Assembly (NCBI RefSeq): GCF_009914755.1
Contig: NC_060934.1
Length of the DNA: 64,000 nucleotides
Strand: one strand, 5' to 3'
Source of the DNA: the human T2T-CHM13v2.0 reference genome, Homo sapiens
Part shown: piece by piece, positions 31,137 through 35,140 of the stretch
Layout: every line of letters begins with the position of its first letter
Position numbering within the stretch: position 1 is the first letter of the stretch
The notes under the pieces: model-generated
The model's database searches: none
The model's input: the letters and a program-made list of their open reading frames with translations, nothing else
Told to the model about the DNA's origin: nothing
Translations under genes and position numbers: made by a program

Positions 31137-33601
31137 TTTTCTATTATTCATCATCTAAGTATTTCTCAATTTTATCTCTTCAAAGATTCAAACTTTGGAT
31201 CTTTAAATTTCTTTATTGTTTTTTGTTTTATTTTCTGTTTGATTGATTTCTGCTCTAATTTGTATTATTTCTTCGTTTTTCTTGCTTTGTGCTCAGTTTA
31301 GTCTTCCTTTTCTAATTTCTAAGGTTGGGAGAAAGAATGATTAAGAACTCTCTTTTTAAAATAACCTTTAAATTTTGATATAATTGTAGATTTACTTACA
31401 GTTATAAGAAATAATATAGAGAGATTTCTTGTAACCTTATCTCAGTTCTCCCAGTGGTAACATCTTGCAAAAGTATAGTACAATATCATAACCAATATGT
31501 GGAGGTTGATATAGTCAACATACAGAATATTTCCATTACCACGGAATCCCTCATGTTGTTCTTTCCTAGCCACATCTATTTTCCTCTTTTTCACCTCATC
31601 TTTAACCCTTGATAACCACTAATCTTTCCTCCATTCTCATAATTTTGTCACTTCAGTAATGTTCTACAAGGGAAATTCTACATCATATAATCTTTTGTGG
31701 TCAGATTTATTTACTCAGCATAATTCTCTGAAAATTTATGGAAGTTGTTGTCTATATCAATAGCTTGTTTCTTTTTGTTGCTAAGCAGTGCTTTATTGCA
31801 TGAATGTAATACATTTTGTTTAAACTTATTCACACCTTCAAAAATGTCTGGGTTGTTTCCAGTTTGGGGTTATTAAAAATAAAGCTGTTCTGAATATTTG
31901 TGTAAAGTTTTTGAATTAACGTGGTTTTTAAAAATTACTCTGCTGTAAATGCCCAGGAGTGAAATCACTGAGTCATAAAGTCATTGCCTGTTAAACTGTT
32001 TGCTTTTTAAAGAAAGTATCAAATTGTTAGAGAATGGCTTTGTTATTTTACATTCCCATCAACCATGCACCAGTTATGTAGTTTCTTTGCAGCCTTGCTA
32101 GCACTCAGTGTTGTCATTATTTTTTATTGTAACTATTCCATTGGGTATATATTGAAATCCCATTGGGGTTTTAATTTTTCATTCCCTAATGGCTAACGAT
32201 GTTGACGTCTTTTCATGCTCTGATTTTCCAAACATATATTCTTTTCAGTGAAATGTATATTCATGTCTTTTGCCCACTTTCTAATTTGACTTTGTTCACT
32301 CTTAAGTTTTGAAAGTTCTTTATATATTCTTGCTACTAGTCTTTTTCAGACACATGGCAAGCAAAAGGGGAAGGAAGGAGCACCTTTTTACTGTCAAGTT
32401 GAGATGAAGGTCAAGGTTCCCCATTAGGCCTCCTTTGCCACAAAAAAAGTAAATACTCTGTGTTTTTAAGATAAAGTGATGGATGCCAAGAAAGACTCAA
32501 ATTTTTTTATGTACTAATCATAAAAATGAACTATGATTTATAATTCTTCTCTTCCATTTTCATTATACATAAGAAAACAAAATACATCATTCTCAATAAT
32601 AAGAATTCTGAGTGAAACTCACCAGTTCACCTTAGCTATATTTTCCCTTTTGGGTTTCTTTTCTTTTACTTTTTTTTCTCTCTCTCCTTTTTCTTTAAAA
32701 ATTTTGGAGTGTGCAGAGGGATAAGAGTGAGGGAGCGTGGCAAGGAGAGGAGTTCAGATCAGGACAGGGAATGGAGGAGGGCAAGGAGTGAAGGGCACAA
32801 CCCACAGCCTGGGAAAGAGAGGCATGAAACCCAGCGTGTCAGGTGGACGGATCATGGAATGGGGGGCCAGCGGAGGTTAAGGAAGGAGGGCCCAAAGGTA
32901 GGGGTGGGAAAAAGAGAAGAGGAGGAGGAGGAAGTGCGCGTGTGAAGAGTGTTAAGAAAACGACAGGACAGAGCGGGGAGGGGAAAAGCGGGCCGAGGGA
33001 CAGGGTGAAAGGTGAGAAACGAGGGTAAGAGGAAAGAGGGCCCGGGGCGCTGGGGAGTTGGGGAGACGATGGAGCGACAGGTAGAGCAGCTTGGGCCGAG
33101 CCGCGGGGGTGGAATCCAGACGCCGGGCGGGGGAGGGGGCGGCGGGGCGGCGGGACGGTGGGTGGGGGCCACCAGGCGGCGCCGGAGACCACCAAACATT
33201 ACAGCGAGCGAGCCTGCTTCCTGGAGGGAGTGCAGACAAGGACCAGGAGCGGGAGCCGAGCCTCGCGGCCCGGGGCACGGCGCCGCCTGCCCCTCCCCGG
33301 CAGTGCCTCCCGACCCCCTGCCCTCCGCTGGGACATGGCCTGAGGCCCCGCCCGCCGCCCGGGACCCCTCCCCCACGCTGCCCCCGGACCCTCGCCCCAG
33401 GACCGCGGGGTCTCTTCCCGGCCCCGCCGCCCGCCCCGGCGAGAACAGGCCCGGCGGGCAAGGCGGCGGCAGACCGAGGGAGGCCTGGCCCGGCACCCGG
33501 GAGAAGGGTGCGGCGCAGCCCGAGTTTCCCACCTTTTATCCTGGCCCAGACGCGGCTGGGGCGGACGGGACCTCTCGCGCTCTGCCTCCTCCTCTTGCTT
33601 C

Positions 33602-33790
33602 ATGGAGCCATGCGCCTGGGTGGGGGCTCCCGAGAGAAGCTGGCCTGCGGGCGGGCCGGACGCGCTGCGCGGACGGGACGGGGCGAAGGAGGCCGGCAGG
33701 CGGAGGAGGAAGCGGCGGGGCGGCGGCGGCGGCGGCGGCGGCGGCGGCCGGGAAGAACTAGAGGTATTCCCCGGGCGGCTGGAGGACTGA
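33602..33790 (+). CDS. Candidate small ORF (62 aa) reading the GGC repeat as Gly10
   Basis: True ATG (cttcATGG) 117 nt upstream of and in frame with (GGC)10; TGA at 33788-33790. Translation is not demonstrable from sequence alone. Confidence 0.5.
   Translation: MEPCAWVGAPERSWPAGGPDALRGRDGAKEAGRRRRKRRGGGGGGGGGGREELEVFPGRLED
33719..33748 (+). repeat. (GGC)10 / (CGG)9 trinucleotide repeat, non-expanded; matches the LOC642361/NUTM2B-AS1 OPML repeat locus
   Basis: ggaagcggcgg-(GGC)10-cgggaagaactagagg inside the CpG island, ~15.3 kb upstream of a NUTM2 ATG. Confidence 0.9.
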
Positions 33791-35140
33791 GTCGAGCCGG
33801 GACCCGAGTCCTCCGGTATCCCAGCAGCCACCGGAGGCAGTGAGGTAATGGAGGAAGAATGTAGGGAGTCCTCCGGTGGACCACACTCCTTCTAGCGAGC
33901 CGCGGAAACCATAGAGATCAGGGCTCAGCCGGAGGGCCGGCCCACTGCTGTCACGTGGCCTCCATCCGTGCGCTTTATTGGCTGGTGCTGGCTTTACGGG
34001 GTTGAATTTTGGACGCTGCCTGCCATTCGTGGGACCGAGTTTCAGGCAGCTGGAATAAAGAGAGATATCGGGGGAAAGCCGCGAGAAGGCCAGCGTCCCT
34101 CGCTGGGAGCAGAGCTAGCCGAGTAGGGCGCCCGGCTGTCAAACTGGCCGGCGCAGTGCACGCTGGGCCGCCCCGGAGCGATCGCAGAGCCCGTCGGGAG
34201 TCGTAGTCCGGGACGGGCCCGCGGCATCGTCCGCGACGCAGCTCGGGATCCGGGTCGGGGTGTCGGCCGGGTTGCTGCCGGGCACCGTCGAGCGTTAGCC
34301 ACCCAGCATTGAGCTGCCAGCGGCTGTTCTCCCTAAGCACCCTCGCTCACGTCGCCTCGCCTCGCCTCGCCTCGCCTGACCGGCCGCAGCCTTGGATACC
34401 AGCCTTAAATCGAGCCGACTACGGCCCAGCCCCGCCCGCGGCGAGGTGCGCGGGGTTCGGTGCGAGCCCCTCGCCCCTGGCCGGGCCAGCCTCTTGATGC
34501 ACCGGGGACGGGCGCGCCCATCCGACTCTTCGAGGGGCGGCAGGGCCCCATCTGTGTCTTTCGCTCTCGAGCCCCCAGCTAGAGTTGGCTTCAGCGGAAT
34601 ACCTACTGTGCGGGATTATTCAACAAGCCGATTGATCACATTCTTCAGCTCTAGCAGTGCAAAGGCTTCACTGAAAAAGAACATTACAACTTTTTTGAAA
34701 GAAATTTGGGGGTAAATTTAATTTTAAATACTGATTTTTGATAACATTTGATCTTATGACAGCATTTGTATTTTTAATTACAGATAGGATTACACTAAAA
34801 GTCATTTCTGACCTGCTCCCTTACCCTTATGGCTAAAATAAACTGCTAGGCCCTGAAGCAAAGGCGAGCCATGTTCTAGAGCAATGTCTTTCTTGTATTA
34901 AAATACAGCCCCATGCTCACAAAAAAAAAAAAAAAAAATTTTGGAGTGTAAACATATACATCATCTTAATTTGAGTCCTTATGTGTTGACGGTGTGCAGG
35001 GAAGAATGGGAAAGTAACTGTAAGTGGAGCCCAGAAAGAACTAACAAATTCATGAAAAAGTGACATTATTGCTGGTCTATTTTTTTTTTAATTTTCTGCT
35101 TCCTCACACTCTCCCATACTAAATGAATTATTTAGTGGGT

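What the first reader, a model, noticed from the sequence alone, without database searches (positions are those of the whole stretch)
33602..33790. ATG-initiated polyglycine micro-ORF reading through the OPML-type GGC repeat of a 'non-coding' RNA
Seen in sequence: a canonical ATG at 33602 (ttcATGG, G at +4) lies exactly 39 codons upstream of (GGC)10 and in its frame. It gives MEPCAWVGAPERSWPAGGPDALRGRDGAKEAGRRRRKRR-G10-REELEVFPGRLED*. A basic RRRRKRR stretch (NLS-like) directly precedes the Gly tract. The poly-Ala and poly-Arg frames on this strand are reached in the ORF track only from GTG/TTG starts. Established: CGG/GGC expansions in FMR1 (FMRpolyG) and NOTCH2NLC (uN2CpolyG) are translated from small upstream ORFs into toxic polyglycine proteins, and CGG expansion at LOC642361/NUTM2B-AS1 causes OPML. 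Inference: this lncRNA hides a microprotein that becomes a nuclear-targeted polyG protein on expansion, with no need for RAN initiation. Recent OPDM/OPML literature may already describe it, so novelty needs checking.
Basis: partly seen in the sequence, partly recalled or inferred. Interest (0 to 1): 0.9.

Follow-up and report, generated by a model that had tools for sequence, protein, structure and literature searches.

The report
Known polyglycine small ORF in LOC642361
The ATG-started small reading frame running through the GGC repeat of the LOC642361 RNA is real, but it is the already published "LOC6polyG" frame that makes a toxic polyglycine protein when the repeat expands in a rare muscle and brain disease.

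Summary
ATG 33602 opens a 62-codon frame (33602..33790, +) that reads (GGC)10 as Gly10, with RRRRKRR directly before it. One side claim is wrong: ATG 33610 opens a 77-codon Arg-frame ORF through the repeat, and ATG 33069 opens the Ala frame, though upstream of the annotated start of the RNA. On sequence alone the ORF is unremarkable: 1308 of 5000 dinucleotide shuffles of the leader give an ATG reading into the Gly frame.

Boivin et al., Nat Genet 2026 (PMC12987736) show the LOC642361 repeat is translated in the Gly frame from a classical ATG. The evidence includes an acetyl-Met N-terminus by mass spectrometry and loss of product when the start codon is deleted. They name the product LOC6polyG, find it in p62 inclusions of OPML muscle, and show toxicity in cells and mice. 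Only 33602 fits that ATG.

Nuclear targeting by the basic stretch is not supported.

New here: two intact paralogous copies of the ORF (chr2, chr10:88.2 Mb) show no sign of constraint on the peptide. Verdict: real, already known.

The parts
33237..34956 (+). LOC642361 single-exon lncRNA (NR_029407.1), the host transcript of the small ORF
   Evidence: Hub annotation given with the finding. ATG 33602 lies 365 nt inside it.
33335..33343 (+). Two-codon mini-uORF (ATG GCC TGA). It is the first ATG of the annotated RNA, and its stop closes the Gly frame upstream.
   Evidence: ATG 33335 gives MA*. The Gly frame is open only from 33344.
33602..33790 (+). Small ORF of 62 codons reading the repeat as glycine. 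By elimination it is the published LOC6 ORF.
   Evidence: it is the only ATG in the Gly frame that reads into the repeat. Searches give the published experiments.
33698..33718 (+). Basic stretch RRRRKRR (AGG CGG AGG AGG AAG CGG CGG). Its last two codons are CGG units of the same triplet array in another register.
   Evidence: Read directly. TRF array 33712..33748 with 5% indels.
33719..33748 (+). (GGC)10, read as Gly10. This is a normal-length allele of the OPML/OPDM repeat.
   Evidence: The normal range of 3-16 is quoted in the reviews.
33749..33790 (+). C-terminal tail of 13 residues (REELEVFPGRLED) and the TGA stop at 33788..33790
   Evidence: The tail is identical in both paralogues.
33610..33843 (+). 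Overlapping ATG-initiated 77-codon ORF in the Arg frame, starting 8 nt after the Gly-frame ATG
   Evidence: It is intact in both paralogues. Published Arg-frame reporter signal was negligible.
33533..33938 (-). Exon 1 of NUTM2B-AS1, which carries the repeat as CCG/GCC. No ATG-initiated ORF crosses the repeat on this strand.
   Evidence: Hub annotation; the only upstream ATG (33912) gives a 6-aa peptide. The Pro and Arg frames are open with CTG/GTG starts only, and the Ala frame has no start.

Best explanation
The ORF 33602..33790 (+) is the small ORF of the LOC642361 'non-coding' RNA that has already been characterised experimentally as the source of LOC6polyG. Scanning ribosomes start at the ordinary AUG at 33602 and read 39 codons, ending in RRRRKRR. 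They then read the GGC repeat as glycine, followed by a 13-residue tail. At normal length (10 GGC here) the 62-residue product is small and unstable. With about 50 or more repeats it becomes a stable, aggregating polyglycine protein. That protein forms p62-positive cytoplasmic and intranuclear inclusions and is toxic (published). My added reading (inference): the ORF is a fortuitous product of very G+C-rich, stop-poor, triplet-repeat-derived sequence, not a selected gene. The basic stretch is a by-product of degenerate NGG triplets. It more plausibly explains the reported binding to ribosomal proteins than a dedicated nuclear import function.
For: Shown here:
- The ATG, frame, peptide and stop are as described.
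- The ATG lies inside the annotated RNA, and it is the only ATG in the Gly frame that reads into the repeat, because TGA 33341..33343 closes the frame upstream.

Published (PMC12987736; passages and sections 8, 9, 13 read):
- GFP reporters in three frames show Gly-frame translation of LOC642361.
- Mass spectrometry shows an acetylated Met N-terminus at a classical ATG, and deleting the start codon abolishes the product.
- A normal-length (~10 GGC) ORF is translated into an unstable peptide of under 100 aa.
- The antibody stains p62 inclusions in OPML muscle but not other subtypes.
- The protein is toxic in muscle cells and mice.
- It interacts with ribosomal proteins independently of the Gly tract.
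- 100 pure GGC RNA repeats without a start codon are not toxic.

For the 'fortuitous ORF' reading:
- 1308 of 5000 shuffles give such an ATG-to-repeat frame.
- In the two paralogues, all 4 distinct substitutions in the non-repeat part of the ORF are non-synonymous (D26G, R33G, G8E, W14C).
- The substitution rate in the ORF (2/180 and 4/177) equals that of the flanks (4/223 and 5/223 upstream; 1/189 and 3/189 downstream).
- There is no Pfam match (0 families for either of 2 peptides).
- The last two Arg codons are CGG units of the repeat array itself.
Against: - I could not see the amino-acid sequence the authors print. It is in Fig. 2e and the supplements. The identity of their ATG with 33602 therefore rests on elimination.
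- The 'no constraint' argument rests on only 4 substitutions among 3 recent duplicates of about 97% identity. No primate orthologues could be examined. The authors themselves suggest that the normal microproteins may be functional.
- ATG 33610 in the Arg frame has a better -3 base, yet the reported Arg-frame signal is negligible. My model does not explain this.
Confidence: 0.9

Rival explanations
1. The repeat is translated mainly by repeat-associated non-AUG (RAN) or near-cognate initiation, in one or several frames, and the ATG at 33602 is incidental.
For: In-frame near-cognate codons exist in the Gly frame (CTG 33485, GTG 33620, CTG 33665). Many exist in the Ala and Arg frames. GIPC1's polyG does start at a CTG.
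Against: - Published: initiation on LOC642361 is at a classical ATG with an acetyl-Met N-terminus.
- Deletion of the start codon abolishes the product.
- Translation does not depend on repeat length.
- Ala and Arg frames are negligible.
Confidence: 0.04
2. Disease at this locus is driven chiefly by the repeat RNA or by the antisense NUTM2B-AS1 CCG transcript, through RNA foci or Pro/Ala/Arg products. On this view the sense-strand small ORF is a bystander.
For: The locus is transcribed in both directions. On the minus strand the Pro and Arg frames are open across the repeat with CTG/GTG candidates.
Against: - No ATG-initiated ORF crosses the repeat on the minus strand. ATG 33912 gives 6 aa, and the Ala frame has no start.
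- Published: 100 pure GGC RNA repeats without a start codon are not toxic.
- The sense RILPL1 CCG RNA shows no detectable translation.
- LOC6polyG alone reproduces inclusions and toxicity.
- The antisense NUTM2B-AS1 RNA itself was not reported as tested in the text I read.
Confidence: 0.05
3. The 62-residue peptide is a selected, functional nuclear or nucleolar microprotein whose RRRRKRR stretch is a true import signal.
For: - There are seven consecutive basic residues next to the Gly tract.
- The ORF, start and stop are kept in both paralogues.
- LOC6 binds ribosomal proteins independently of glycine, and LOC6polyG is among the more toxic and insoluble polyG proteins.
- Nuclear polyG is more harmful than cytoplasmic polyG (abstract and passages of the preprint).
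Against: - The authors speak of the absence of an evident NLS and single out asRILpolyG as the more nuclear protein. LOC6polyG inclusions are both cytoplasmic and nuclear.
- One paralogue has R33G inside the basic stretch, and all ORF substitutions are non-synonymous.
- An NLS added to a small polyG construct made no difference.
- The strict monopartite core K-K/R-X-K/R (recalled consensus) is not met, because Gly follows K-R-R.
Confidence: 0.12

Closest known systems
LOC6polyG / LOC642361 small ORF (Boivin et al., Nat Genet 2026, PMC12987736)
   Same: Same RNA, same repeat, same frame, a classical ATG start, and a peptide under 100 aa at normal length. By elimination it is the same ORF.
   Different: Nothing in kind. 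Three things seen here are not found in the paper's main text (0 occurrences of 'leaky scanning', 'conserved', 'primate'; supplements unseen): the overlapping Arg-frame ATG ORF, the two paralogous copies, and the register shift that makes part of the basic stretch.
uN2CpolyG (NOTCH2NLC upstream ORF; NIID/OPDM3)
   Same: An ATG-initiated small ORF in sequence annotated as non-coding reads GGC as glycine. The normal product is a small microprotein, and the expanded product forms p62 inclusions.
   Different: - It is an upstream ORF of a coding mRNA, whereas this one sits on a lncRNA.
- The flanking peptides differ.
- uN2C binds KU70/KU80, whereas LOC6 binds ribosomal proteins.
FMRpolyG (FMR1 5'UTR; FXTAS)
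   Same: A CGG/GGC repeat in a 5' leader is translated in the Gly frame into an aggregating protein.
   Different: Initiation on FMR1 is at a near-cognate codon and has been described as RAN translation (abstract listing). Here the start is an ordinary ATG.
asRILpolyG (antisense RILPL1; OPDM4) and uGIPpolyG (GIPC1; OPDM2)
   Same: They are sister cases in the same paper. asRIL also starts at a classical ATG on a non-coding antisense RNA.
   Different: uGIP starts at a CTG. asRILpolyG is systematically more nuclear, and uGIPpolyG is less toxic.

Membership tests
PolyG-disease small ORFs (FMRpolyG, uN2CpolyG, uGIPpolyG, asRILpolyG, LOC6polyG) | The GGC repeat lies in a transcribed RNA, on the strand that reads GGC | tested here: met
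   The repeat at 33719..33748 and ATG 33602 lie inside the annotated + strand RNA 33237..34956 (hub annotation). Bidirectional transcription is stated. No expression data could be examined here.
PolyG-disease small ORFs (FMRpolyG, uN2CpolyG, uGIPpolyG, asRILpolyG, LOC6polyG) | The repeat is in the Gly frame of an upstream ATG or near-cognate start, with no stop between them | tested here: met
   ATG 33602 lies 39 codons upstream with no stop.
PolyG-disease small ORFs (FMRpolyG, uN2CpolyG, uGIPpolyG, asRILpolyG, LOC6polyG) | Translation from that start is shown experimentally (N-terminus, start-codon mutant) | not testable with these tools
   Published for LOC642361: an acetyl-Met N-terminus by mass spectrometry, and deletion of the ATG abolishes the product.
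PolyG-disease small ORFs (FMRpolyG, uN2CpolyG, uGIPpolyG, asRILpolyG, LOC6polyG) | The expanded product is found in p62-positive inclusions of patients | not testable with these tools
   Published: the LOC6 antibody stains inclusions in OPML muscle and not in other subtypes.
PolyG-disease small ORFs (FMRpolyG, uN2CpolyG, uGIPpolyG, asRILpolyG, LOC6polyG) | Repeat length is in the pathogenic range (about 50 or more) | tested here: not met
   This assembly carries 10 GGC, a normal allele (normal 3-16). The locus is a member, but the allele is not expanded.
RAN translation | Initiation without an AUG and dependent on repeat length | tested here: not met
   An in-frame ATG exists. Published: translation is independent of repeat length and lost on ATG deletion.
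Classical monopartite nuclear localisation signal | Core K-K/R-X-K/R (consensus recalled, not from a call) | tested here: not met
   The only Lys is K37, followed by R38, R39, G40, so the fourth position is Gly. The stretch is still a run of 7 basic residues and could act as an arginine-rich signal.
Classical monopartite nuclear localisation signal | The stretch is necessary and sufficient for nuclear import | not testable with these tools
   No mutant of the stretch is reported in the text read. The authors speak of no evident NLS.

The most novel reading that the evidence does not exclude
The LOC6 small ORF exists in three intact copies in this genome. The other two are at G000:C2:128321016-128321427 with pure (GGC)7, and at G000:C10:88225789-88226197 with GGC GGA (GGC)4. 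The second lies about 15.9 kb upstream of a NUTM2-like coding exon, mirroring the window. Each keeps the ATG, the basic stretch (R33G in the chr2 copy), the frame, the tail and the stop. If these copies are transcribed, they make nearly identical microproteins. An expansion at one of them, most plausibly the uninterrupted chr2 tract, would give a LOC6polyG-like protein. That protein would be recognised by the same antibodies and would share sequence with the known locus. They would then be candidate loci for genetically unsolved OPDM/NIID-like families, and a source of cross-mapping at the known locus.
Probability: 0.07. Interest if true: 0.6.

Novelty: already known. Interest (0 to 1): 0.15.

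Why it matters
The biology matters. It explains how a repeat in a 'non-coding' RNA makes protein inclusions in OPML/OPDM, and it places the disease among the polyglycine disorders, which share a therapeutic target. That case was made experimentally and published in February 2026, so this finding adds no new mechanism.

The residual value of this check:
- The published ATG can be pinned to window position 33602 by elimination.
- On sequence alone the ORF is what stop-poor, G+C-rich repeat sequence often gives, and it shows no constraint among paralogues. A pathogenic ORF therefore need not be a selected gene.
- Three points are not discussed in the main text of the paper: an overlapping ATG ORF in the Arg frame, two intact paralogous copies, and the repeat-derived origin of the basic stretch.

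Tried and rejected
Anything there on the Arg-frame ATG, NLS prediction or conservation is unseen.
- Earlier notes of this scan: not open.
- Text search of the paper for 4 peptide strings: 0 occurrences each, so there is no direct sequence confirmation.
- Pfam scan of the 62-aa and 77-aa peptides: 0 families for either.
- RNA fold of 33585..33800: -108 kcal/mol against a shuffle mean of -112.05, z 0.84, with 159 of 200 shuffles folding at least as well. A small hairpin (GGAGCC/GGCUCC) enclosing AUG 33610 appears in both the MFE and centroid structures. It has no statistical support, so I rejected it as evidence.
- Literature searches with 'at least 2 of 6 terms': none of the 15 papers listed in either search contained LOC642361, so they say nothing.
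- Search for 'LOC642361' plus 'paralog': 2 papers. The one I read (PMC7844047, passages) uses the words in unrelated contexts. The other (PMC9808627) I saw only in the listing.
- Searches for 'LOC6polyG' and 'asRILpolyG/uGIPpolyG': only the Nat Genet paper and one later preprint. No earlier preprint of the work is in the library.
- Reviews of 2022 (PMC8918734, PMC9153130; passages): they list the OPML mechanism as unknown or pose polyG translation as a question. The ORF was not in print there.
- Orthologues in other primates: no collection of such genomes is on hand, so not done.

Full report
**1. The observation**

The window is G000:C10:80662001-80726000. The + strand carries ATG at 33602 in the context tgcttcATGg. 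From there a frame of 62 codons runs to TGA at 33788..33790. It has three parts:
- 39 codons ending in RRRRKRR (33698..33718).
- Ten GGC codons (33719..33748).
- A 13-residue tail.

Tandem Repeats Finder reports one period-3 array at 33712..33748, with 12.7 copies and 5% indels. The indel is an extra G at the junction CGG CGG | GGC. The two Arg codons just before the glycines are therefore units of the same array read in another register. The five codons before them (AGG CGG AGG AGG AAG) are degenerate NGG triplets (read).

**2.

The annotated LOC642361 leader (33237..33718) holds exactly three ATGs:
- 33335, a two-codon mini-uORF whose TGA at 33341..33343 closes the Gly frame upstream.
- 33602, in the Gly frame.
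- 33610, in the Arg frame, context ggagccATGc. It opens a 77-codon ORF to 33843 that reads the repeat as nine Arg.

So the Arg frame is reached from an ATG only 8 nt downstream of the Gly-frame one. The Ala frame has an ATG at 33069 (230 codons). That ATG lies upstream of the annotated 5' end, so inside the RNA only near-cognate codons serve the Ala frame.

**3. More than chance?**

No, not on sequence alone. The leader is 78% G+C. In 5000 dinucleotide-preserving shuffles of it:
- 1308 gave an ATG reading without a stop into the Gly frame.
- 1315 did so for the Ala frame and 1281 for the Arg frame.
- 3162 did so for at least one frame.

All three frames are open for 148 to 252 codons across the repeat.

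**4. What it is**

The literature search found the answer at once: Boivin et al., Nat Genet 2026;58:517 (PMC12987736). I read the outline, many passages, and sections 8, 9 and 13. They report the following.
- They cloned the LOC642361 sequence upstream of about 50 GGC repeats in front of GFP in all three frames. Translation was in the Gly frame, and the Ala and Arg frames were negligible.
- Mass spectrometry of the immunoprecipitated product showed an acetylated methionine N-terminus at a classical ATG upstream of the repeat.
- Deleting the start codon abolished the product.
- The ORF with about 10 GGC is also translated. Its product is a small unstable peptide, hardly detected unless the cell's degradation pathways are inhibited.
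- The expanded product, named LOC6polyG, is stable and largely insoluble.
- A monoclonal antibody against its specific flank stains p62-positive rimmed vacuoles and intranuclear inclusions in OPML muscle, but not in other OPDM subtypes.
- The protein kills muscle cells and causes myopathic change, cardiomyopathy and death in AAV-injected mice.
- It binds ribosomal proteins independently of the Gly tract.
- 100 pure GGC RNA repeats without a start codon were not toxic.

The paper's printed peptide sequence is in a figure and in supplements that I could not see. None of four peptide strings occurs in the main text. The Gly frame has a single ATG that reads into the repeat, and the RNA is a single exon. 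Their 'classical ATG' must therefore be 33602.

**5. Priority**

- Reviews of 2022 still list the OPML mechanism as unknown, or ask whether the LOC642361/NUTM2B-AS1 repeat is translated (PMC8918734 and PMC9153130, passages).
- A 2025 review (passages containing 'LOC642361') and a 2024 clinical paper (0 occurrences of polyglycine, polyG or 'translat') gave no mention of the ORF in what I read.
- The names LOC6polyG, asRILpolyG and uGIPpolyG occur only in the 2026 paper and one later preprint.

**6. The nuclear-targeting inference**

Published evidence leans against it.
- They describe asRILpolyG, not LOC6polyG, as systematically more nuclear. All the polyglycine proteins, LOC6polyG included, form both cytoplasmic and nuclear inclusions.
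- A 2026 preprint (10.64898/2026.05.11.723935, passages) reports that adding an NLS to a small polyG construct did not significantly alter its distribution. It attributes this to passive diffusion of small proteins through the pore. Control over localisation needed fusion to one or two GFPs.
- The strict monopartite core K-K/R-X-K/R (recalled) is not met, because Gly follows K-R-R.
- One paralogue carries R33G inside the stretch.

A run of seven basic residues is nevertheless a plausible cause of the reported glycine-independent binding to ribosomal proteins. That is my inference, and it is untested.

**7. Paralogues (new here)**

A search of the genome with 33480..33900 found two more copies:
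- G000:C2:128321016-128321427, 96% identical.
- G000:C10:88225789-88226197, 95% identical.

The chr2 duplicate covers window 32714..34921, roughly the whole lncRNA. The chr10 duplicate covers all 3.4 kb fetched. The chr10 copy lies about 15.9 kb upstream of a NUTM2-like first coding exon at 88241659. In the window the ORF lies about 15.5 kb upstream of the NUTM2E coding start. No NUTM2 exon match was found on chr2.

Both copies keep the mini-uORF ATG, the ATG of the ORF, the frame, the tail and the stop. The indels are 9 and 12 bases, so the frame is unchanged. Their tracts are (GGC)7, giving 59 aa, and GGC GGA (GGC)4, giving 58 aa. The Arg-frame ORF is intact in both as well.

Outside the repeat the ORF shows four distinct substitutions, all non-synonymous:
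- D26G, in both paralogues.
- R33G, in the chr2 copy.
- G8E and W14C, in the chr10 copy.

The only synonymous change is the GGA inside the tract. Differences from the window copy, by region:

| Region | chr2 copy | chr10:88.2 Mb copy |
|---|---|---|
| ORF | 2/180 | 4/177 |
| Upstream | 4/223 | 5/223 |
| Downstream | 1/189 | 3/189 |

This gives no sign of purifying selection on the peptide, but the numbers are very small.

**8. The other strand**

Exon 1 of NUTM2B-AS1 (33938 to 33533, minus) carries the repeat as GCC/CCG.
- Its only ATG before the repeat (33912) gives six residues.
- The Ala frame has no start codon of any kind between its upstream stop and the repeat.
- The Pro and Arg frames are open with CTG/GTG candidates only.

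An ATG-driven product is thus specific to the + strand.

**9. Other checks**

- Neither peptide matches a Pfam family.
- The RNA around the start codons and repeat folds no better than shuffles (z 0.84).

**10. Unexplained**

ATG 33610 has a purine at -3, where 33602 has a pyrimidine. Some leaky scanning into the Arg frame would therefore be expected, yet the reported Arg-frame signal with about 50 repeats is negligible. The main text mentions neither this ATG nor leaky scanning. Possible reasons:
- Capture of ribosomes by the first AUG.
- Stalling on a long CGG-coded Arg run.

Both are inferences. The authors' controls for such bias are in a supplementary note that I could not read.

**11. 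Verdict**

The feature is real and was correctly read, but it is already known (LOC6polyG). The nuclear-targeting addition is unsupported, and one side claim is wrong. The most novel reading left open concerns the two intact paralogous ORFs as possible further polyG loci. Its probability is low.

Noticed in passing
window 33610-33843 (+): An ATG-initiated 77-codon ORF in the Arg frame starts 8 nt after the Gly-frame ATG. It has a better -3 base (G against T) and reads the repeat as Arg9. It is intact in both paralogues. It is not mentioned in the main text of the 2026 paper, which reports negligible Arg-frame signal at about 50 repeats.
   Followed up: partly
L002 (G000:C2:128319516-128322927), ORF ATG at locus position 1623; L003 (G000:C10:88224289-88227697), ORF ATG at locus position 1623: Two paralogous copies of the LOC6 small ORF are intact, at 59 and 58 aa. 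Their tracts are (GGC)7 and GGC GGA (GGC)4. The chr10 copy is syntenic with a NUTM2-like gene, and the chr2 copy is a 2.2-kb partial duplicate of the lncRNA region. One targeted literature search found no paper linking them to LOC642361.
   Followed up: partly
window 33713-33721 (+): An extra G at the CGG CGG | GGC junction shifts the register of the triplet array. In one and the same frame the first two units code Arg and the rest code Gly. Part of the 'NLS-like' stretch is therefore repeat-derived.
   Followed up: yes
window 33237-34956 and 34083-34711 (+): The single-exon LOC642361 RNA overlaps exon 1 of NUTM2E on the same strand. A NUTM2E transcript starting at the upstream site would carry the small ORF as an upstream ORF, as in NOTCH2NLC and GIPC1. 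No transcript-start data could be examined.
   Followed up: no
window 33335-33343 (+): The first ATG of the annotated RNA opens a two-codon mini-uORF (ATG GCC TGA) in good context (gacATGg). It is conserved in both paralogues and could modulate how many ribosomes reach 33602.
   Followed up: no
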